Origin: a virus
Virus record (IMG/VR): IMGVR_UViG_3300045988_174371
Location: 32,001 to 96,000 of that record
Length of the DNA stretch: 64,000 nucleotides
Direction: 5' to 3' (one strand)
Position numbers and translations under genes: made by a program. Under the pieces are notes generated by a model. It made no database searches. It saw only the letters and a program-made list of their open reading frames with translations, and was not told the DNA's origin. Shown one piece after another: positions 1-58,196 of this stretch (the stretch's first letter is position 1; each line of letters starts with the position of its first letter).

Positions 1-12
1 TGTGGTAGTAAT
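1..12 (+). promoter_or_regulatory. possible extended -10 promoter core cut by window edge
   Basis: TGTGGTAGTAAT matches the window-wide TGTGGTA..A.T core (cf. 62098..62108); -35 would lie outside the window. Confidence 0.3.
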
Positions 13-26
13 TGCGTGAAGTCAAA

Positions 27-79
27 CCCCCTGCTGGTAAGGAGTATTTCCTTACTGGCAGGGGGTATAACTATTTTTT
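27..79 (+). terminator. intrinsic terminator hairpin plus T-run
   Basis: 17-bp stem CCCCCTGCTGGTAAGGA/TCCTTACTGGCAGGGGG (G-U pairs only work in plus-strand RNA) followed by TATAACTATTTTTT. Confidence 0.6.
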
Positions 80-478
80 CTATTCGCCAAAGTAGTCAAT
101 GGATTCGATGGAGAGGTTGGCATCTGCACCCGCCGTTTCACTACCGGCAGTCACCTTGAAATGGCGGAGTCTGATTTCACCGAAAAGCTCGGAGGTCTGC
201 TTCATCTGCTCATAGTTCGGCGGGTTGGGGATGCTGTACACCGTTTCGCCAAGCTTAGTGTCGCCCTGATAGAACTCTACGGCATATCGCTTATTAGCGG
301 TGTCCACGGTAAGCATCGCATCATGGAAGGTTCCATTGAGGAAGCTCACCGCGTCCTCTGCGTTTACACCGGGGAACAGCTTTAGGGATAGGGGGATGTT
401 GAAGTCGTGGAAGAACCTACCTGGGGTGAACCCTGCGGGGACGTTGTTCCAATACATTGAGTCCATAAACATTGTCAC
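80..478 (-). CDS. hypothetical small acidic protein (132 aa)
   Basis: complete ORF; AAGGAAC SD about 7 nt before ATG; stacked directly after 493..822. Confidence 0.7.
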   Translation of the reverse strand: MTMFMDSMYWNNVPAGFTPGRFFHDFNIPLSLKLFPGVNAEDAVSFLNGTFHDAMLTVDTANKRYAVEFYQGDTKLGETVYSIPNPPNYEQMKQTSELFGEIRLRHFKVTAGSETAGADANLSIESIDYFGE

Positions 479-492
479 TGGTTCCTTTGGGG

Positions 493-822
493 CTAGATGT
501 TTACGCGATAGCTATCAATGTGGAGGTAGAGGCGTTCATTATCAATGGTGATACGTGCCTTGTTCTCGAAAGGGCTGTCAAGGATGAACATGCCGAACTC
601 ATGTACGGGGTCGATGGTTACGGCGTATTCCTTACCTTCGGCAGTAATGGTGCTTTCGAGGTATTCAACGGTAAGCTCATCACCACTGAAGCTGTCCGGG
701 TTAATGCTGAAGCGCGCTTCGTCCAGGTTAGCATTAGCGAGCGCTTCGAAGGTTTCCGCATCTGCGCTAATGGGGAAGTCGATGTCGGTGAAATGTGCGG
801 TGAGAAAATGGTTCTTTGCCAT
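493..822 (-). CDS. hypothetical acidic protein (109 aa; track ORF 493..831 trimmed)
   Basis: GAAAGGA SD lies 8-9 nt upstream of the ATG at 822; the first ATG overlaps the SD. Confidence 0.65.
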   Translation of the reverse strand: MAKNHFLTAHFTDIDFPISADAETFEALANANLDEARFSINPDSFSGDELTVEYLESTITAEGKEYAVTIDPVHEFGMFILDSPFENKARITIDNERLYLHIDSYRVNI

Positions 823-869
823 GATTATCATCCTTTCAGATAGCGGTAGTTGTCGTGGTGTGGCTTGCG

Positions 870-1184
870 TTATGCAAGGGTGCCCATGAGGGCAACGATG
901 AGCTGGTATGCTTCGGTGTTTTCGGAGCCGTCTGCCTTGTCCTCCATGTCAGTTACGGGGCTGATGCGGATGACAGGGGTAGTTGCCAGGCTATCGGTGG
1001 TGATGGTAACCAAGTAGGTGCCTTCGCGGGTTTCTACCAGGTAGGAGGTGCCGCCTTCGATGGAGACAGTATCAATATCGTCGATGATACCCAGGTGCTC
1101 GCGGTTGCTTTCTAGGATATTGAGTGCATCCTGGGTTGCGGTAGCGGTCTTTGCTTCGATGATGTGGGTGGAGGTGATGTACAT
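870..1184 (-). CDS. hypothetical protein (104 aa)
   Basis: GAAAGG SD; family promoter 1224..1253 directly upstream. Confidence 0.75.
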   Translation of the reverse strand: MYITSTHIIEAKTATATQDALNILESNREHLGIIDDIDTVSIEGGTSYLVETREGTYLVTITTDSLATTPVIRISPVTDMEDKADGSENTEAYQLIVALMGTLA

Positions 1185-8775: not shown

Positions 8776-9846
8776 CTAGCGCTTACGCTTCTTCTTCTTA
8801 GTGAGGAAGGCATTGGAAACTACCTTGAAGTGGGCGCGGTTTCCCAGCTCCCTGCGGGGCTTGCCGTCCTTGAAGTACCAGACGATACCCTCTACGGTTT
8901 CACCCGGCGCAACGGCAGAGGTGATGGTGTCAGGCTGAGCAACGGCATTGCCTGCGTCCCAGGTAACGTTGTCGAGGATGGGAACCCAGAGCCCTGCGTC
9001 CTTGAATCGACGTTCAACATCTGCGTTAGATGCGTGGAAAGCGCGGAAGTCTGCAACGTCGCCGGTGGCGAACTTAAACTTCGAGCTAATCTTGTTGCAG
9101 AAGAGTTCACCCTGTACCCATTCACCAGGCTTGAGGCTGTCGAACAGTTCTGCGTAGCGGGAGTAGCCGTCGCGGTAGTACTTCCAAGCGGAGCTGTTGA
9201 GTGCGTCCTGCTTGATGGCGTAGTTGCGGTTAGCGATGCGGATAGCGCCAGTTTCAACATCTCGCCAGACGGTCATGGAGGTTCCGTCAATCTTCTCGGT
9301 AGCGTACACATCATCAGCAGAGATGTTTTCGAAGAAGGAGGCGGGAATGTTCTGGACGCGCTCAGCATCAGTAGTGCCAATGAACCCTGGGAAGCTTTCC
9401 AGACCCTCTTCGCCAACCGCGAGGATAGCATCTTCAATGTGCTTGGTGACAATGCCGTCAAAGTAAGCATCAACCTCATCCTGGGAAGCCTCCGCAGATA
9501 GACCTTCAAAGCTTTCCAGGGGAAGCAGGAGACCTTGGGAGAGGCTTTCACGGAAGTGCTGGCTACGGAGCACAACACCTGAGATTGCCTTGCCGTTAAT
9601 GATGCGGGTTGCCTTCTTGCCCTTAATGGGGGCAAATGCAGGGAAGTCGCTACTCAGCAGGGAGTCAATCTCAAAGTAGACCGCCTTGTCGCCTTCCTGC
9701 ATGGTCTTGGGTGCTACCACCCACCATAGGGTGTTCTTAGGGTTTGCCATGTGGATGAAGTTTGCGGGGTCGTTGCATTCCTTGGTCTTGTCGATGGTGA
9801 CAATGCGGGCGAGGTGGCGGATGCCGTCTACAGCAGTCGATGCCAT
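8776..9846 (-). CDS. ATP-dependent RNA ligase, DRB0094/Rnl5-like (356 aa)
   Basis: nucleotidyltransferase motif I EKIDGTS (KxDG), motif III-like GELFC, motif IV EGIVW, motif V FKVVS; N-terminal OB-like region with AVYFEIDSLL, typical of the DRB0094 family; GAAAGGA SD. Confidence 0.8.
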   Translation of the reverse strand: MASTAVDGIRHLARIVTIDKTKECNDPANFIHMANPKNTLWWVVAPKTMQEGDKAVYFEIDSLLSSDFPAFAPIKGKKATRIINGKAISGVVLRSQHFRESLSQGLLLPLESFEGLSAEASQDEVDAYFDGIVTKHIEDAILAVGEEGLESFPGFIGTTDAERVQNIPASFFENISADDVYATEKIDGTSMTVWRDVETGAIRIANRNYAIKQDALNSSAWKYYRDGYSRYAELFDSLKPGEWVQGELFCNKISSKFKFATGDVADFRAFHASNADVERRFKDAGLWVPILDNVTWDAGNAVAQPDTITSAVAPGETVEGIVWYFKDGKPRRELGNRAHFKVVSNAFLTKKKKRKR

Positions 9847-20130: not shown

Positions 20131-21213
20131 TCAGCTGGTGTAGGTTGCGGGGGTATTACATGTCACTTTGGCGGCTCCGTCCTCTGCAACTTCGATAGAT
20201 TCGATGCCGACGATATGCCCTGCCGGGTAGCCTCTTAGTGGTTCTTTCAGATGGAAGAAAGGGACGGTTGTGGTGGGTATACCAGATGAGGTGTTGGTGA
20301 TGATAGCTAGGGAGGGCGTGAGGAATAGCGCTTCGAAGTTGTTTCTTGTGGTTGATATGTCCATGCGGTGTATGTTGTTGAGTCGTAGTTCGCCAACGTT
20401 CAGGAACTCGTAAGAGCCCATACTGCGACTGAGGCGATGTGCCCTGTAATCTTCATGTATGTAGAGAACTGCTTCCGCGTCACGCTTTTCAAAAACTCCT
20501 GACACAGTACCTGTGTTGGCTTCCTTGAGTGTTTCAGTGAACCAGTAGATAGCATCTGCTCTGGCGTTATCTTCGTCCATGTCAGTCCAGTATCTCATGG
20601 AATCTGAAGCGTCACGCTTAACCGGCTTGCCTTTGTCGTTCCACCCGTAGAGGTGGTTGTGTGAACGAGGGTGTATTAGCTTCATGTAGTCATCAGTGGA
20701 ATGCTCTTTGTCGAGCAGTATTACCTCAGGTGAGCCGCCCCTAAGTGCTGGGAGCCTAACGCCCGTGGGGTCAGTGACATACAATCCAGGCTGTCCCCAG
20801 TACTGATGATTCTTCCTTAGCTTTGGGTGAGTCTCAGCTATCTTCGGGGTAAGAAAGCTGACTTTCTTGTCGGCTACAAGTAGCTGTATCTGCCAGTTAT
20901 GGTAAGAATGTTCGATGTCTCGCAGGCAACCGTCAATGACATGGTTCCAGCCCTTCGCTTTCCCCCAGGCGCTTTCGCTTGTGGTGTCGCCGCAGAAAAT
21001 CGACACATACTCCTGCATGTCACGCATACCTTCTAGGGCGCAGGTGAGGGGATGGATGGTGAAGATGTCTTTGAGTGGTTTGCCGATAGCGATAGGCGGG
21101 AAGTCATACTTGGGCTCAAACACCATGTCGCGCCATGCGCCACGCATAAAAGGAGTTCCCCCTGCCTGTGCAGAGGACACTCCTTGGTTATGGCGACTAC
21201 CTGGACGAAGCAT
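20131..21213 (-). CDS. SHN-YGW family paralog (360 aa)
   Basis: GGAGA SD; shares the DPxGVRxP...ILLD..H......R.SHNHLYGW block with 24264.., 25069.., 25848.., 26345.., 42827.. and 45630..; lies downstream of tRNA-Leu in the same transcription direction. Confidence 0.8.
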   Translation of the reverse strand: MLRPGSRHNQGVSSAQAGGTPFMRGAWRDMVFEPKYDFPPIAIGKPLKDIFTIHPLTCALEGMRDMQEYVSIFCGDTTSESAWGKAKGWNHVIDGCLRDIEHSYHNWQIQLLVADKKVSFLTPKIAETHPKLRKNHQYWGQPGLYVTDPTGVRLPALRGGSPEVILLDKEHSTDDYMKLIHPRSHNHLYGWNDKGKPVKRDASDSMRYWTDMDEDNARADAIYWFTETLKEANTGTVSGVFEKRDAEAVLYIHEDYRAHRLSRSMGSYEFLNVGELRLNNIHRMDISTTRNNFEALFLTPSLAIITNTSSGIPTTTVPFFHLKEPLRGYPAGHIVGIESIEVAEDGAAKVTCNTPATYTS

Positions 21214-21257
21214 TAGATGTCTCCAATCTGCAAAATAGTTAAGCGGTTGTGCTTACG

Positions 21258-21342
21258 TGTGCCTGGCGGGATTCGAACCCGCACGTCCTATTGCGGACAC
21301 CAGCCCCTCAAGCTGGCGTGTCTACCATTCCACCACAGGCGC
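21258..21342 (-). tRNA. tRNA-Leu(GAG), class II, copy 1
   Basis: cloverleaf read by eye: D-arm GTG/CAC with GAATGGTAGA loop, anticodon stem CCAGC/GCTGG, loop TTGAGGG, long variable arm, T-arm GCGGG-TTCGAAT-CCCGC; C2-A71 mismatch in the acceptor stem relative to copy 2. Confidence 0.8.
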
Positions 21343-21504
21343 TAAAGTCAAAGCCAGGCAGGGCTTCCACCCCCTCCGCCTCATTGTATCCCCGTCCAGG
21401 GTGAGGCGGTGAGAACGGATGCCTTCCGGGTGCTATCCAACACCCCTTGCCTGGCTCCTGGGGTCTCAATCCGAAACCCTTTAGGCGGTTTCTCAACCGT
21501 TGAT
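21343..21504 (-). ncRNA. structured RNA (copy D1) co-transcribed upstream of tRNA-Leu(GAG)
   Basis: about 160 nt between the promoter and the tRNA 5' end; homologous to 47912..48073 (shared GAGUUAUCAACGGUUGAGAARCCGCC, GGAGCCAGGYAAGGGG, CGGAAGG, GCCURGCUUUGA); local helices differ by compensatory changes. Confidence 0.6.
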
Positions 21505-21510
21505 AACTCC

Positions 21511-21540
21511 ACTGTACCACAATGATTTTGAGGTATGCAA
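21511..21540 (-). promoter_or_regulatory. family promoter (strong)
   Basis: minus reading TTGCAT-N13-TGTGGTACAGT. Confidence 0.7.
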
Positions 21541-21630
21541 GTCGAATTGATGTGAGGTGAGACATGTGGCATTGCGGATTACCTCGCCGTTACCTGGGTC
21601 GCTTCACGGAGATTCCCGTCAGCACTTTTG

Positions 21631-21641
21631 TGTGGTACACT
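21631..21641 (+). promoter_or_regulatory. family promoter core
   Basis: TGTGGTACACT, 55 nt upstream of the 21696 start. Confidence 0.55.
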
Positions 21642-21695
21642 GTAAGTATGTCCCCGCATGGGGGTACATCTACTACTACGACAGGAGCTACTAAG

Positions 21696-22316
21696 ATGGC
21701 ATATTTCCCCCGCTGGGATTATGGCGACGACTACACTGAATGGAATTACCCCACTGGCGTTGAGCTTGCCGAATACCTCAAGGAGGAGCTGGTCGGTAAG
21801 AAAATTACCTACATGGACGACACTCTGATTGAGCTCGATAACGGTCGAGTCCTGGAAATTGCCCCTAATGAGGGGTGTGATTGTTGCCCTAACGGTAACG
21901 CTAGTATTGTGGGTGATTCTGTGCGCGCCGCATCTGAATCCGCCATTCTAGACGTGAAGTACTCTGAGTGGGAAACTCATGGTGAATCTTCAAGCTTCGG
22001 CATCTTCATCCTTACCGCCAATAAGCATGAGAGCAACCTGTATGATACGGTCTCAATTAGCGGCTATGACGCTTTCGATGTACCGTCTTACTATGGGACT
22101 GGCTTCTGGGTCAGGGCGGCTTTCAAGGAGGGGATGAAGCCCACTGAAGCTGATGTAGCTGAGTCCTCCAATGTGGGCGGCAACAATGCGGCAGGTAAGC
22201 GTGAGCTTCCTGGTGCAATGGGCTACATGTCGAACCCGCCAATTATTCGCCCTAAGAAGCGTAAGGGCAAGCCATCCGGTACGTTGAAGCTTCGAGGTGA
22301 CATCTTCAAGCAGTAA
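21696..22316 (+). CDS. hypothetical protein with basic tail (206 aa; track ORF trimmed)
   Basis: CAGGAGC SD 8 nt before the ATG at 21696; the promoter lies inside the longer track ORF; C-terminal RPKKRKGKPSG. Confidence 0.7.
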   Translation: MAYFPRWDYGDDYTEWNYPTGVELAEYLKEELVGKKITYMDDTLIELDNGRVLEIAPNEGCDCCPNGNASIVGDSVRAASESAILDVKYSEWETHGESSSFGIFILTANKHESNLYDTVSISGYDAFDVPSYYGTGFWVRAAFKEGMKPTEADVAESSNVGGNNAAGKRELPGAMGYMSNPPIIRPKKRKGKPSGTLKLRGDIFKQ

Positions 22317-22853: not shown

Positions 22854-22882
22854 TTGCATCCTGCTTGGGAGGCTGTTATGCT
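22854..22882 (+). promoter_or_regulatory. promoter for leader + tRNA-Leu(TAG)
   Basis: TTGCAT-N17-TATGCT with a TG extension (TGtTATGCT). Confidence 0.6.
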
Positions 22883-22888
22883 AGTATT

Positions 22889-23014
22889 ATCCATAAGGGA
22901 AATGAGGCTAACTCCCTTCGTTCCCGCCTTTACAGTAAAATGCTGTCAAAGGTTCCATCTTGGATGACTCTGTGTTCAGAGGGGGACTTTGGAAGTCTCT
23001 AAAGTCCCCCGTTA
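22889..23014 (+). ncRNA. about 125-nt structured 5' leader of tRNA-Leu(TAG)
   Basis: no ORF; hairpins AAGGGA..TCCCTT and GGGGGACTTT-ggaagtctct-AAAGTCCCCC (22981..23010) immediately 5' of the tRNA. Confidence 0.45.
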
Positions 23015-23097
23015 GCGCCCGTGGTGAAATTGGTAGACACGCAGGATTTAGGTTCCTGTGCCTTTACGGTGTGTGGGTTCGAGTCCCACCGGGCGTA
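23015..23097 (+). tRNA. tRNA-Leu(TAG), class II
   Basis: acceptor GCGCCCG/CGGGCGT (G1-U72), D-loop AAATTGGTAGA, anticodon stem CAGGA/TCCTG, loop TTTAGGT, long variable arm, T-arm GTGGG-TTCGAGT-CCCAC. Confidence 0.8.
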
Positions 23098-23137
23098 CTT
23101 GCTTTTCGAAGAAGTGATGCTAGATATTGGTCTAGAT

Positions 23138-23197
23138 AAAGGGCTGTCCCCCGTTCATATCCCCTGTATAGGGAATGTGGGCGGGGGACAGTCCTTT
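23138..23197. terminator. bidirectional terminator
   Basis: AAAGGGCTGTCCCCCG ... CGGGGGACAGTCCTTT. Confidence 0.7.
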
Positions 23198-47875: not shown

Positions 47876-47905
47876 TTGCATACCCCAAATAATCTGTGAT
47901 ACGAT
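47876..47905 (+). promoter_or_regulatory. family promoter (strong), divergent from 47810..47839
   Basis: TTGCAT-N13-TGTGATACGAT. Confidence 0.7.
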
Positions 47906-47911
47906 AGAGTT

Positions 47912-48073
47912 ATCAACGGTTGAGAAGCCGCCCAAACAAACCCCGGATGGGGTTTAAGGGAGCCAGGTAAGGGGCGCTGGAAAGCCGCTCGGAAGGTTTC
48001 TCACTTACTGTCTTGCCCCGGATGGGGACTACCCGCTAGACACTAAGTGAGAAACCCGCCTAGCTTTGAGTAA
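47912..48073 (+). ncRNA. structured RNA (copy D2) co-transcribed upstream of tRNA-Leu(GAG)
   Basis: no ATG at all; hairpins AAACCCCGGAUGGGGUUU, CCCCGGAUGGGG and GUUUCUCACUUA...UAAGUGAGAAAC; homologous to 21343..21504. Confidence 0.6.
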
Positions 48074-48158
48074 GTGCCTGTGGTGGAATGGTAGACACGC
48101 CAGCTTGAGGGGCTGGTGTCCGACACAGGACGTGCGGGTTCGAATCCCGCCAGGCACA
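48074..48158 (+). tRNA. tRNA-Leu(GAG), class II, copy 2
   Basis: perfect acceptor GTGCCTG/CAGGCAC, anticodon loop TTGAGGG, variable arm GTCCGACACAGGAC, T-arm GCGGG-TTCGAAT-CCCGC. Confidence 0.85.
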
Positions 48159-48289
48159 CTAGTCACCCCCTATATGGGGTGGTGAGAAGCTTCAGGCTAA
48201 TCTTCTGCCCCCTGCATGGCTTCATCTCATGTAAACCTGGTGGTAATCCCATCACTGGAGTTAAAAGACCTAACGAAAGGTATGTCATT

Positions 48290-48538
48290 ATGTCCGATAT
48301 TCAGTACCTCGGTAACGACGAGTTTAAGATTTCCCGCAATGAGCTTGCAGGGCTCCTTAAGTCTGACGCTATCCTCTCTGCGCTTGAATGGGCAGGTGTA
48401 GATAATTGGTGTGGCTGGGATGATGCGCGCGGCGATTACGTCCGCGAATACGTAGAAGAGCACGAGGATATGGAAGCCGAAGACCCGTGGTTTGATGAGA
48501 TTGTCGCTCACAAGCTGAAGCTCATCGAAGAGGCATAA
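48290..48538 (+). CDS. hypothetical acidic protein (82 aa; track ORF trimmed)
   Basis: CGAAAGG SD about 10 nt before the ATG at 48290; the longer track ORF overlaps the tRNA. Confidence 0.7.
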   Translation: MSDIQYLGNDEFKISRNELAGLLKSDAILSALEWAGVDNWCGWDDARGDYVREYVEEHEDMEAEDPWFDEIVAHKLKLIEEA

Positions 48539-48562: not shown

Positions 48563-48606
48563 TAAGGGAGCCGCCTAACCCGGTATGGGGTTAGGCGGCT
48601 CCCTTA
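48563..48606. terminator. bidirectional terminator
   Basis: 19-bp arms TAAGGGAGCCGCCTAACCC/GGGTTAGGCGGCTCCCTTA. Confidence 0.8.
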
Positions 48607-58067: not shown

Positions 58068-58123
58068 GCGCTACGGCTTTCCTTAGATGCTTAAAACATG
58101 CCCCCAAGGAGGAAATATAGATG

Positions 58124-58196
58124 TACCCCTTGCCGGGTTCGAACCGGCGACTTCTAGATTCGGACTCTAGCGCTCTATCCACTGAGCTAAAGGGGC
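58124..58196 (-). tRNA. tRNA-Arg(CCG)
   Basis: GCCCCTT-TA-GCTC-AGTGGATA-GAGC-G-CTAGA-GTCCGAA-TCTAG-AAGTC-GCCGG-TTCGAAC-CCGGC-AAGGGGT-A; G1-U72 and an unusual G32. Confidence 0.75.

What the first reader, a model, noticed from the sequence alone, without database searches (positions are those of the whole stretch)
21258..21559. Homologous ~160-nt structured RNAs fused upstream of duplicated tRNA-Leu(GAG) genes
Each of the two tRNA-Leu(GAG) genes is preceded by a near-consensus promoter (TTGCAT-N13-TGTGGTACAGT or TGTGATACGAT). Between promoter and tRNA lies about 160 nt of ORF-free sequence that is homologous between the copies.

Conserved blocks are GAGUUAUCAACGGUUGAGAARCCGCC, GGAGCCAGGYAAGGGG, CGGAAGG, UUCUCAC and GCCURGCUUUGA.

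Between these blocks the helices are replaced rather than conserved:
- GGGU..ACCC in D1 versus AAACCCC..GGGGUUU in D2, both around a CGGAU loop.
- CCGCCUCA..UGAGGCGG in D1 versus UUUCUCACUUA..UAAGUGAGAAA in D2.
- CCCUGGACGGGG in D1 versus CCCCGGAUGGGG in D2.

Normal tRNA precursors have short leaders. A conserved, structured, strongly transcribed RNA physically linked to a tRNA is unusual. It might be a processed sRNA, a tRNA-maturation or aminoacylation-sensing element, or a Y-RNA-like module. I cannot name a known family.
Basis: partly seen in the sequence, partly recalled or inferred. Interest (0 to 1): 0.8.

Follow-up and report, generated by a model that had tools for sequence, protein, structure and literature searches.

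The report
Structured phage RNA fused to tRNA-Leu
A giant bacteriophage from the human mouth carries two copies of an uncatalogued, intricately folded RNA of about 160 bases that is made in one piece with a leucine tRNA; related phages keep its fold, so it very probably has a job, but that job is still unknown.

Summary
Two tRNA-Leu(GAG) genes (21257-21342 minus strand, 48074-48159 plus strand) each sit behind a phage-wide sigma-70-type promoter. Each also follows a homologous leader that I predict to be 162 nt long.

I collected 22 distinct versions of the leader from about 300-375 kb phage contigs in human (partly salivary) metagenomes. They fall into four sequence groups, down to 31-39% identity between groups.

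All of them fit one fold:
- a GNRA-capped hairpin, P2
- a branched arm, P3
- a long-range helix, P4, that closes a three-way junction
- a hairpin, P5
- a helix of about 19 bp, P6, with an apical hairpin, P6c

On this alignment 94% of pair cells are paired, and 24 of 56 pairs show changes on both sides. The stems are replaced between groups. Three hairpin loops always begin with GGA, and the P5/P6 junction is GGAA in 18 of 22 sequences.

Nothing similar turned up elsewhere:
- no Rfam family
- no similar DNA in 50,697 GenBank phage genomes
- no genuine match in 185,579 representative bacterial and archaeal genomes
- no conserved ORF

This is a new structured non-coding RNA family. My best guess at mechanism, at low confidence, is that RNase P releases it from the tRNA and that its GGA loops bind a protein, as a decoy or as part of an RNA-protein particle. 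Function and expression remain untested.

The parts
21511..21540 (-). D1 promoter: -35 TTGCAT, 18-nt spacer containing the TGTG/TGn extended -10, then -10 TACAGT
   Evidence: Pattern TTGCAY-N12-16-TGNTAYNNT occurs 10 times in the window against 0.11 expected. Sequence read.
21343..21504 (-). D1 leader RNA, 162 nt from the predicted start (A at 21504) to the base before the tRNA
   Evidence: Covariance models score it at 101 bits (R1) and 146 bits (R2), both over the full model length. Folding gives -82.6 kcal/mol, z = -5.2. The start site is inferred: in all 10 promoters a purine preceded by a pyrimidine lies 7 nt after the -10 hexamer.
21486..21499 (-). D1 P2 hairpin, CGGUU-GAGA-AACCG, with a GNRA-type loop
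   Evidence: Five pairs, 98% of cells paired across 22 sequences. The loop is GAGA, GAAA, GAAAA or GAGAA in homologues.
21457..21485 (-). D1 P3: CCU...AGG closing the hairpin GGGUUUC-GGAUU-GAGACCC
   Evidence: The closing pair changes U-A to C-G (8 against 14 sequences). The inner stem is wholly replaced in D2 (AAACCCC/GGGGUUU) while the loop still starts with GGA.
21449..21456 (-). D1 P4, 5' strand: AGCCAGGC
   Evidence: Pairs with 21352-21359. Two of eight pairs carry changes on both sides and 93% of cells are paired. RNAalifold recovers the helix on its own.
21352..21359 (-). D1 P4, 3' strand: GCCUGGCU
   Evidence: As for the 5' strand.
21428..21445 (-). D1 P5 hairpin, GGGUGUU-GGAU-AGCACCC
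   Evidence: Three of seven pairs change on both sides. The distant group has GGGAAGCC-GGAC-GGUUUCCC or GGGAGACU-GGAU-AGCCUCCC at this position.
21424..21427 (-). D1 junction between P5 and P6: GGAA
   Evidence: GGAA in 18 of 22 aligned sequences. The exceptions are GAAA (L018), AGAA (L022), GGAU (L029), and L107, where the stretch reads CCAGGAAGG and the model aligns it one base out of register.
21362..21423 (-). D1 P6: a long interrupted helix (22 positions per strand, with two A/A mismatches) plus an apical region
   Evidence: 14 of the 19 modelled pairs change on both sides across the family, and 93.5% of cells are paired. RNAalifold recovers it.
21390..21401 (-). D1 P6c apical hairpin, CCCU-GGAC-GGGG
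   Evidence: CCCY-GGAY-GGGG in the 18 sequences of the three closer groups. The distant group has CC-GGA(C/U)-GG at the same place.
21257..21342 (-). D1 tRNA-Leu(GAG). No CCA is encoded. The acceptor stem has a C2/A71 mismatch.
   Evidence: ARAGORN. Rfam tRNA model, 52.5 bits, with the non-canonical pair flagged.
47876..47905 (+). D2 promoter: TTGCAT-N13-TGTGATACGAT
47912..48073 (+). D2 leader RNA, 162 nt from the predicted start (A at 47912) to the base before the tRNA. Helices: P1 47913-47916 with 48066-48069; P2 47917-47930; P3 47931-47960; P4 47961-47968 with 48058-48065; P5 47972-47990; junction GGAA 47991-47994; P6 47995-48056; P6c 48016-48027.
   Evidence: I wrote the structure by hand on alignment A3; it gives 96.8% of cells paired against 29-56% when the partners are slid. 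Model scores are 176 bits (R1) and 157 bits (R2).
48074..48159 (+). D2 tRNA-Leu(GAG)
48290..48538 (+). Gene downstream of the D2 tRNA on the same strand: an 82-aa protein like T7 Gp5.9 (a RecBCD inhibitor). A 19-bp hairpin followed by a T-rich tail, called on the minus strand, lies just beyond it at 48563-48606.
   Evidence: Pfam PF25708 is listed for the orthologous 82-aa genes in relatives, and one of the 50 scanned window ORFs, a set that included this one, matches it at 1.8e-11. Terminator-like hairpin.
20131..21213 (-). Gene downstream of the D1 tRNA on the same strand: 360 aa, no known family, start codon 44 nt after the tRNA
   Evidence: The same gene order holds in relatives L001 and L007.

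Best explanation
The element is a previously uncatalogued structured non-coding RNA, present in two paralogous copies. It forms the first 162 nt of a transcript that starts at a phage sigma-70-type promoter and runs straight into tRNA-Leu(GAG), and then into protein-coding genes.

Shown here:
- The RNA folds into a conserved multi-branch architecture. P2 is a hairpin with a GNRA-type loop and P3 is a branched arm. P4 is a long-range helix closing a three-way junction with hairpin P5 and the roughly 19-bp helix P6, which carries an apical hairpin P6c.
- Stem sequences are exchanged between lineages, while three hairpin loops always begin with GGA and the P5/P6 junction is nearly always GGAA.

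Inferred:
- RNase P cleaves at the 5' end of the tRNA. That cut matures the tRNA and at the same time releases the leader as a discrete RNA of about 160 nt whose 5' end is tucked into the short helix P1. In this reading the tRNA doubles as the leader's 3'-end processing signal.
- The released RNA acts in trans early in infection. It offers several GGA sites to a host or phage RNA-binding protein, either as a decoy (as the Csr/Rsm small RNAs do for CsrA) or as the RNA subunit of an RNA-protein particle.
For: Homology and fold:
- A covariance model built only from the D2-type sequences finds the D1-type leaders at 92-108 bits. It finds a distant group at 39-58 bits, always over its full length.
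- On the 22-sequence alignment, 94.0% of pair cells are standard pairs, against 83.0% after shuffling (0 of 500 shuffles reach the observed value).
- 24 of 56 pairs change on both sides. The covariation score is 0.391, against 0.186 after shuffling and 0.05-0.11 with slid partners.
- RNAalifold, predicting freely on that alignment, recovers P2, P4, P5, P6 and P6c.
- Identity between groups in this alignment falls to 31-39%, and only 34 of 160 columns are invariant.

Loops:
- The P3b, P5 and P6c loops read GGAU, GGAA, GGAC or GGAUU in every sequence, over completely different stems.

Transcription unit:
- The same promoter motif occurs 10 times in the window against 0.11 expected.
- A purine preceded by a pyrimidine lies 7 nt after every -10 hexamer.
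- The simple scan called no terminator-like site between leader and tRNA.
- The leader keeps its own fold when folded together with the tRNA.

Not coding, not known:
- No frame is open across the family.
- No Rfam family matches.
- No similar DNA in 50,697 phage records.

Precedents, from my own knowledge rather than tested here:
- T4 makes stable RNAs (species 1 and 2) from its tRNA operon.
- The C4 RNA of phages P1/P7 and the lncRNA MALAT1 are matured by RNase P.
- The 3' external spacer of the E. coli glyW-cysT-leuZ pre-tRNA acts as a sponge for small RNAs.
Against: - There are no expression data, so the start site, the RNase P cut and accumulation of the leader are all inferred.
- No binding partner was identified.
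- The 80 window ORFs I scanned against Pfam include no CsrA-like protein. The conserved 114-aa neighbouring gene has no recognisable fold.
- The host is unknown, so I cannot say whether it has CsrA.
- The loops are GGAN tetraloops closed by C-G or U-A pairs. Csr/Rsm RNAs typically have A(N)GGA loops of five or six bases. This is from my own knowledge.
- The overall GGA count is only about twice that of shuffled sequence (P = 0.03-0.13). The signal lies in where the GGAs sit, not in how many there are.
- The covariation comes from four lineages only, and the alignment was fitted to the model. The counts are therefore not independent events.
- P1 and the closing pairs of P3 compete with a two-pair G-U extension of P4 that RNAalifold prefers.
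Confidence: 0.35

Rival explanations
1. The leader acts only in cis. As the first RNA to emerge from the polymerase, it might modify RNA polymerase (as lambda nut/boxB or HK022 put RNAs do). Alternatively it might guide folding and processing of the tRNA and the downstream mRNA. In this reading it has no role after it is cut off.
For: It starts at or near +1 of the transcript in every genome. P2 is a promoter-proximal hairpin whose loop (GAGA, GAAA, GAAAA, GAGAA) looks like a boxB loop. In a distant relative (L106) a similar 5' hairpin follows another promoter of the same type, upstream of the gene like T7 Gp5.9. The module always precedes further genes.
Against: The D2 unit has nothing to read through. 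The only terminator-like hairpin lies after the last gene (48563-48606). No boxA consensus is present. A polymerase-directed element would not obviously need about 160 nt, a 19-bp helix and three invariant GGA loops. Known put and nut elements are much smaller (my own knowledge).
Confidence: 0.2
2. The element is an accessory specific to the tRNA. It might hold or chaperone pre-tRNA-Leu. It might instead be a decoy for a host nuclease or defence system that attacks tRNA-Leu.
For: Every copy found is linked to tRNA-Leu(GAG). If the two U-A pairs at the top of P2 open, its loop reads UUGAGAA, against the tRNA's anticodon loop UUGAGGG. The window also encodes an RNA ligase of the kind used for tRNA repair.
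Against: Four of the 22 sequences have GAA in place of GAG in the P2 loop, so anticodon mimicry is not conserved. The linker to the tRNA varies from 5 to 16 nt. No complementarity between leader and tRNA emerged when the whole precursor was folded. The third tRNA-Leu gene (TAG anticodon) carries an unrelated leader.
Confidence: 0.1
3. The element is a ribozyme or a ligand-sensing riboswitch of a new class.
For: It has a complex multi-junction fold, a GNRA-type loop, and strong conservation of structure.
Against: Few unpaired nucleotides are invariant apart from the GGA motifs. There is no terminator, anti-terminator or start-site-sequestering expression platform. The distance to the tRNA 5' end is not conserved, which argues against self-cleavage at that site. 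No known ribozyme or riboswitch model matches.
Confidence: 0.07
4. It is a spacer with no function of its own. It looks conserved only because the genomes are closely related and the module was duplicated recently.
For: Most of the 22 sequences come from closely related phages. The two copies exchange sequence: L020 carries a D1-type leader between D2-type flanks, and the window's D1 tRNA has a D2-type 3' end.
Against: The distant group shares only 31-39% aligned identity yet keeps every helix, through many changes on both sides. It also keeps all three GGA loops. Leader length is held at 161-163 nt in the three closer groups despite wholesale replacement of helices.
Confidence: 0.05
5. It is an RNA anti-CRISPR, in which the CCCC-GGAU-GGGG hairpins imitate CRISPR repeats.
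For: The hairpins are G+C-rich with tetraloops and short 3' tails, and the same 12-mer occurs twice in D2. There is one weak Rfam hit to CRISPR-DR60 (15.6 bits, E = 7.6).
Against: That hit lies far below the family's gathering score of 45 and is on the opposite strand. Hairpin sequences differ between D1, D2 and the distant group, which repeat mimicry would not tolerate. The hairpins are embedded in a larger conserved fold.
Confidence: 0.03

Closest known systems
Stable RNAs of the phage T4 tRNA operon (species 1 and 2, rnaC/rnaD)
   Same: They are phage-encoded small stable RNAs of 120-140 nt, made from the same precursor transcripts as phage tRNAs and released by the tRNA-processing machinery. 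Their function is still unknown. (From my own knowledge.)
   Different: I found no sequence similarity to any GenBank phage record. Here each copy has its own promoter and a single tRNA, the fold is larger and multi-branched, and the GGA loops have no T4 counterpart that I know of.
Csr/Rsm protein-sponge small RNAs (CsrB, CsrC, RsmX/Y/Z)
   Same: They display several GGA motifs in hairpin loops and in single-stranded linkers on one small RNA.
   Different: There is no match to any of the Rfam Csr/Rsm models. The loops here are GGAN tetraloops rather than A(N)GGA loops. The RNA is one compact multi-junction fold rather than a string of short hairpins. It ends in a tRNA rather than a terminator. 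Neither the host nor any CsrA is known.
RNAs whose ends are made by RNase P: phage P1/P7 C4 antisense RNA, P4 CI RNA, MALAT1 with mascRNA
   Same: A tRNA or tRNA-like structure next to a functional RNA lets RNase P define that RNA's end. (From my own knowledge.)
   Different: Here the downstream element is a genuine tRNA-Leu, presumably functional, so a single cut would yield two products. Cleavage has not been shown.
The 3' external transcribed spacer of the E. coli glyW-cysT-leuZ pre-tRNA
   Same: It is a by-product of tRNA (including tRNA-Leu) precursor processing that has a regulatory, sponge-like role of its own. (From my own knowledge.)
   Different: That spacer is short, lies 3' of the tRNA, is unstructured, and titrates small RNAs by base pairing. 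This element lies 5' of the tRNA, is 162 nt long and is highly structured.
Large ornate phage-associated RNAs (GOLLD, ROOL)
   Same: They are complex structured RNAs of unknown function found in phages and prophages, often next to tRNA genes. (From my own knowledge.)
   Different: They are three to five times larger. Both are in Rfam and neither matches here.
Lambda nut boxB and HK022 put RNAs
   Same: They are promoter-proximal structured RNAs in phage early transcripts. The P2 loop variants resemble boxB loops.
   Different: There is no boxA and no downstream terminator that needs overriding, and this element is much larger.

Membership tests
Any Rfam 15 family (4227 models) | Covariance-model score at or above the curated gathering threshold | tested here: not met
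   Only tRNA passes in the window. At E<=10 on window 21200-21700 nothing credible overlaps the leader. The same holds for relatives L024, L038, L106 and L107.
tRNA (the 3' partner of the leader) | Cloverleaf recognised by ARAGORN and by the Rfam tRNA model, with a Leu-type long variable arm and anticodon GAG | tested here: met
   52.5 and 57.6 bits against a gathering score of 29.
Csr/Rsm sponge small RNAs | Several GGA motifs exposed in hairpin loops or single-stranded linkers | tested here: met
   Three hairpin loops start with GGA in all 22 sequences, and the P5/P6 junction is GGAA in 18 of 22.
Csr/Rsm sponge small RNAs | GGA presented as A(N)GGA in loops of five or six bases, matching the CsrA binding consensus | tested here: not met
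   The loops are GGAU, GGAA or GGAC tetraloops (GGAUU in D1 P3b), closed by C-G or U-A, with no preceding unpaired A. The consensus itself is recalled from my own knowledge.
Csr/Rsm sponge small RNAs | Similarity to the CsrB, CsrC or RsmX/Y/Z models | tested here: not met
   None appears among the Rfam hits even at E<=10.
Csr/Rsm sponge small RNAs | A CsrA or RsmA protein in the host or phage that binds the RNA | not testable with these tools
   The host is unknown. No CsrA family appears among the 80 window ORFs scanned against Pfam. Binding needs an experiment.
Y RNA / YrlA | Match to the Y RNA or YrlA models, and a Ro (Rsr) gene nearby | tested here: not met
   No Rfam hit. The Pfam scans of 80 window ORFs reported no Ro-related family. 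Only 64 kb of a genome of about 300 kb or more was examined.
T-box leader | T-box model match, a terminator/anti-terminator switch, and a position upstream of an aminoacyl-tRNA synthetase or amino-acid gene | tested here: not met
   No Rfam hit. No terminator-like site between leader and tRNA. The downstream element is a tRNA.
Lambda nut / HK022 put antiterminator RNAs | Promoter-proximal position in an early transcript | tested here: met
   The leader begins at the predicted +1.
Lambda nut / HK022 put antiterminator RNAs | Terminators downstream in the operon that must be read through, and a boxA element for nut | tested here: not met
   The only terminator-like hairpin in the D2 unit follows its last gene. 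I see no boxA consensus in the sequence.
T4-type stable RNAs from tRNA operons | Encoded in one transcription unit with phage tRNA genes | tested here: inconclusive
   Gene order, a single upstream promoter and the absence of an intervening terminator fit this. Co-transcription itself was not observed.
T4-type stable RNAs from tRNA operons | Sequence homology to T4 rnaC or rnaD | tested here: not met
   blastn with 11-base words finds nothing in 50,697 phage records. I did not check that T4 itself is among those records.

The most novel reading that the evidence does not exclude
A new class of phage RNA whose release is coupled to tRNA maturation. One RNase P cut would yield both a leucine tRNA and a compact 160-nt RNA. 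That RNA would use its GGA sites (three loops and one junction) to capture a host regulator or defence protein, or a phage partner, at the very start of a jumbo-phage infection. One possible target is a factor that recognises ACCGAAAGG, the phage's own translation-start motif, which the leader's CCCGGAAGG junction resembles.
Probability: 0.25. Interest if true: 0.8.

Novelty: new variant of a known kind. Interest (0 to 1): 0.58.

Why it matters
Giant phages of the human mouth are common but almost wholly uncharacterised. Nearly every protein in this window lacks a known family.

A 160-nt RNA whose multi-junction fold survives while most of its sequence is replaced is a rare sign of function in such a genome. 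Its position at the front of transcription units driven by host-type promoters suggests it acts during host takeover. In one of these units it is followed by a gene for a protein like T7 Gp5.9, a RecBCD inhibitor.

If the leader is released by RNase P and binds a protein, it would be a clear bacterial-virus example of a genuine tRNA doubling as the 3'-end processing signal for a regulatory RNA. That would add to the few known cases of functional by-products of tRNA precursors. It would also give a compact, naturally evolved RNA scaffold for structural study.

Practically, the covariance model built here can be used to annotate the family. No current database would recognise it.

Tried and rejected
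1. Known RNA families. Rfam at gathering thresholds on the whole window, and at E<=10 on the locus and on four relatives, returned only tRNA. I also compared the sequence by eye with SRP RNA (shared CCGGAAGG), RNase P RNA, 6S RNA, Y RNA (shared GAGUUAUC and UUGACU in human Y1), T-box leaders and CRISPR repeats. These are short chance resemblances that no model supports.

2. Similar DNA elsewhere.
- Nothing in 50,697 GenBank phage records.
- One megablast hit to a 735-kb phage was only the tRNA, inside a tRNA array.
- A viral-contig pattern hit, L005, was a high-G+C chance match.
- Seven of the 13 metagenome hits were chance matches.
- On inspection I judged all 61 hits in the 185,579 reference genomes to be chance matches.

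3. More copies in the window. A full-sensitivity model search found only D1 and D2. The other hits are plain hairpins matching P6.

4. Coding potential. No frame is conserved.

5. A pseudoknot between the P2 loop (UGAGAA) and UUCUCA in P6. I rejected it because the loop changes from GAGA to GAAA or GAAAA without a compensating change.

6. A helix between AGUUA upstream and UGACU downstream. It shows some covariation, but its 5' strand lies upstream of the predicted start site, so I set it aside in favour of the 4-bp P1 (UCAA/UUGA, changing to UAAG/UUUA in the distant group).

7. The conserved 114-aa neighbouring gene as a possible binding partner. The AlphaFold model has mean pLDDT 70 and no structural match with E<=0.001 in the PDB. 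Homologues of this gene also occur without the leader.

8. A CsrA-like or Ro-like gene in the window. None was found.

9. Genome-wide enrichment of hairpins with GGAN tetraloops. There is none: 5 observed against 4 in shuffles.

10. Host identification. I only reached the environment. BNJU01 contigs come from human saliva.

11. The D1 locus in more distant relatives. Homologues of the upstream neighbouring gene in L108 and L109 have no leader or tRNA beside them.
Full report
**What is at the locus**

The window carries four tRNA genes. They are tRNA-Leu(GAG) at 21257-21342 (minus strand; I call this locus D1), tRNA-Leu(GAG) at 48074-48159 (plus strand; D2), tRNA-Leu(TAG) at 23015-23098 (D3) and tRNA-Arg(CCG) at 58123-58196. 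Rfam confirms all four and reports nothing else in the 64 kb.

So it is this phage's standard sigma-70-type promoter with an extended -10, not something peculiar to the tRNAs.

In all ten copies the seventh base after the -10 hexamer is a purine preceded by a pyrimidine. From this I predict transcription starts at A 21504 (D1) and A 47912 (D2). That makes both leaders 162 nt long. The start sites are inferred, not observed.

**Checking the observation**

The two leaders align along their whole length. Identity is about 62% in the leader and near-complete in the tRNA.

Each leader folds far better than shuffled controls. D1 gives -82.6 kcal/mol, z = -5.2; D2 gives -68.1 kcal/mol, z = -3.5. The D1 fold persists when the tRNA is included.

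An 85-aa ORF overlaps D1. It begins upstream of the promoter's -35 hexamer and has no counterpart in D2. Across the homologues no reading frame stays open.

**Where the sequence comes from**

The window resembles nothing in GenBank phages except through the tRNA itself.

Pattern scans and look-ups through neighbouring proteins led to relatives on contigs of about 300-375 kb. These include an IMG/VR contig of 306,861 bp and BNJU01003487.1 of 306,473 bp. BNJU01 is a set of human saliva assemblies. Other samples carry the names of human-microbiome cohorts.

Almost no protein in the window has a Pfam or PHROG family. The exceptions include an RNA ligase. The 82-aa gene just downstream of D2 also appears to be one. 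Its orthologues in relatives are listed under the T7 Gp5.9 family, a RecBCD inhibitor, and one scanned window ORF matches that family. The host could not be identified.

**The family**

I assembled 22 distinct leader sequences. Every one lies directly upstream of a tRNA-Leu(GAG) and directly downstream of the promoter motif. They fall into four groups:
- eight of D1 type: the window copy plus L001, L007, L009, L013, L017, L018 and L020
- two of D2 type: the window copy plus L016
- eight of a D2-related type: L022-L025, L027 and L029-L031
- four from a distant group: L033, L038, L106 and L107. In this group the neighbouring 114-aa protein is only 63-68% identical to the window's.

In the structure-based alignment the distant group shares 31-39% identity with the others.

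**The fold**

I wrote a structure by hand on the ten collinear D2 and D2-related sequences. It gave 96.8% of cells paired, against 29-56% when the partners were slid by one to three columns.

A covariance model built from those ten sequences alone then found all D1-type leaders at 92-108 bits. It found the distant group at 39-58 bits, each over the full model length.

On the resulting 22-sequence alignment:
- 94.0% of pair cells are standard pairs, against 83.0% after shuffling (0 of 500 shuffles reach this).
- 24 of 56 pairs carry changes on both sides.
- The covariation score is 0.391, against 0.186 after shuffling and 0.05-0.11 with slid partners.

The long helix P6 is the clearest case: 14 of its 19 modelled pairs change on both sides. 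P4, the long-range helix that closes the three-way junction, changes from AGCCAGGC/GCCUGGCU (D1) to AGUUAGGU/GCCUAGCU (D2-related) to AGACGGGU/ACCCGGCU (distant).

P5 is GGGUGUU/AGCACCC in D1. In the distant group it is GGGAAGCC/GGUUUCCC or GGGAGACU/AGCCUCCC.

RNAalifold, predicting freely on that alignment, recovers P2, P4, P5, P6 and P6c. It does not recover the 4-bp P1 or the three closing pairs of P3. It prefers to extend P4 by two G-U pairs, so I treat P1 and the P3 closing pairs as tentative.

There are caveats. The alignment was fitted to the model, and the sequences represent only four lineages, so the counts are not independent events.

**What stays constant**

Only 34 of 160 columns are invariant.

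The striking constants are in the loops. The P3b, P5 and P6c loops begin with GGA in every sequence (GGAU, GGAA, GGAC or GGAUU), although their stems are completely replaced. The junction between P5 and P6 reads GGAA in 18 of 22 sequences.

The P2 loop varies within the GNRA type (GAGA, GAAA, GAAAA, GAGAA). This argues against a pseudoknot with the UUCUCA block in P6.

Leader length is held at 161-163 nt in the three closer groups and about 173 nt in the distant group. The P6 region is 62 nt in both window copies even though its internal layout differs between them.

**What it is not**

- It matches no Rfam family.
- It resembles no GenBank phage sequence.
- It was not found in 185,579 reference bacterial and archaeal genomes with the pattern I used. 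I judged all 61 hits to be chance.
- The window holds no third copy.
- It has no terminator or other expression platform between itself and the tRNA. Few unpaired nucleotides are conserved apart from the GGAs, and the spacing to the tRNA varies. These features argue against a riboswitch or a self-cleaving ribozyme.
- The D2 unit has no internal terminator to override, which weakens an antitermination role.

**Most likely mechanism**

Shown: this is a conserved, independently folding RNA domain at the 5' end of a transcription unit that starts at a host-type promoter and continues into tRNA-Leu(GAG) and then protein-coding genes.

Inferred: RNase P cutting at the tRNA 5' end releases the domain as a discrete RNA. 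Its invariant GGA loops and GGAA junction are contact points for a protein. This is the logic of the Csr/Rsm sponges, or of the RNA subunit of a particle.

I put about 0.9 on 'functional structured RNA'. I put about 0.35 on the combined release-and-protein-binding model.

Evidence against a literal Csr-type RNA:
- The loops are tetraloops without the preceding A.
- No Csr/Rsm model matches.
- No CsrA gene was found in the window.
- The host is unknown.
- GGA is only modestly over-represented in bulk.
- Hairpins with GGAN tetraloops are not enriched across the phage genome.

The divergently transcribed 114-aa neighbour gave no functional clue.

**How the module moves**

The module is mobile within the lineage:
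- L020 has a D1-type leader between D2-type flanks.
- The window's D1 tRNA has a D1-type 5' end and a D2-type 3' end, which produces a C2/A71 mismatch.
- Homologues of the D1 upstream neighbouring gene in two other relatives have no module beside them.

These facts point to duplication and gene conversion of the whole promoter-leader-tRNA cassette.

**Comparison with what is known**

The closest precedent in kind is the pair of stable RNAs made from the phage T4 tRNA operon. Related cases are RNAs whose ends are made by RNase P (P1/P7 C4 RNA, MALAT1) and the sponge derived from the leuZ pre-tRNA spacer in E. coli. All of these are recalled from my own knowledge.

As a sequence-and-structure family this element is new. 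As a kind of thing, a functional RNA riding on a tRNA precursor in a phage, it is a new variant. I therefore score it as moderately to highly interesting: a well-supported, fairly large new RNA fold in an abundant but unstudied group of human-associated phages, with no demonstrated function yet.

Noticed in passing
window 22854-23014 (+), upstream of tRNA-Leu(TAG) at 23015-23098: The third tRNA-Leu gene also has its own promoter of the same type. Its leader is about 130 nt long, unrelated in sequence to D1/D2, and built of several hairpins. One hairpin is GGGGGACUUU-GGAAGUCUCU-AAAGUCCCCC. The leader is conserved, with variable patches, in the IMG/VR relative. The tRNA-Arg gene has no such leader.
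   Followed up: partly
window 11218, 13160, 18047, 21511, 22854, 31814, 35663, 47810, 47876, 58038: A phage-wide promoter consensus, TTGCAY-N13/14-TGTGRTACNNT, occurs ten times against 0.11 expected. Several are arranged as divergent pairs. In each, a purine preceded by a pyrimidine lies 7 nt after the -10 hexamer.
   Followed up: yes
window 12720, 13211, 23609 (+); 31757, 35608, 47749, 60352 (-): The motif ACCGAAAGG occurs seven times against 0.42 expected. In the six cases I checked it ends 8-11 nt before a start codon; 12720 was not checked. It could form a small ACC-GAAA-GGU hairpin that includes a weak Shine-Dalgarno sequence. The leader's P5/P6 junction looks like it: CCCGGAAGG in most sequences and CCCGAAAGG in L018.
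   Followed up: partly
window 21257-21342 (-); L020:2129-2400: There are signs of gene conversion between the two cassettes. The window's D1 tRNA has a C2/A71 acceptor-stem mismatch because its 3' end matches D2. In BNJU01003487.1 a D1-type leader sits between D2-type flanks.
   Followed up: partly
window 48290-48538 (+): The gene after the D2 tRNA appears to encode a homologue of T7 Gp5.9, a RecBCD inhibitor (PF25708). This would make the D2 cassette part of an anti-defence transcription unit.
   Followed up: partly
window 8776-9846 (-): A 356-aa protein has an RNA ligase domain (PF09414, 4.5e-11) and a PHA02142 OB-fold domain. This suggests the phage can repair RNA, possibly tRNA.
   Followed up: no
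L106:393-1025 (-) and L107:83-374 (-), downstream of the tRNA in the distant relatives: In L106 about 630 nt with no called gene lie between the tRNA and the next gene. The stretch contains a sequence like a tRNA T-arm (CAGGTTCGATTCCTGG). ARAGORN, run for tRNAs only, found nothing there, and Rfam at E<=1 has no match. Near the end of this stretch in L106 another promoter is followed by AGTTATGTAAGTGGTTAAGGAAACCGCC, which resembles the leader's 5' end and P2.
   Followed up: partly
L026, L027, L029 (positions 1-1030, minus strand); one unlocated ORF in the window: Some relatives carry a 423-aa TnpB-type gene (OrfB_IS605 with a Cas12f1-like TNB domain) about 1 kb beyond the gene like T7 Gp5.9. 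One small window ORF also hits the TNB domain (2.5e-10). Transposon-derived nucleases therefore come and go in this region.
   Followed up: no
window 48563-48606 and 23139-23194: Two very long perfect hairpins lie at the ends of the D2 and D3 transcription units. The first has a 19-bp stem. They are likely terminators that work in both directions. The family model picks up 23139-23194 weakly as looking like P6.
   Followed up: no
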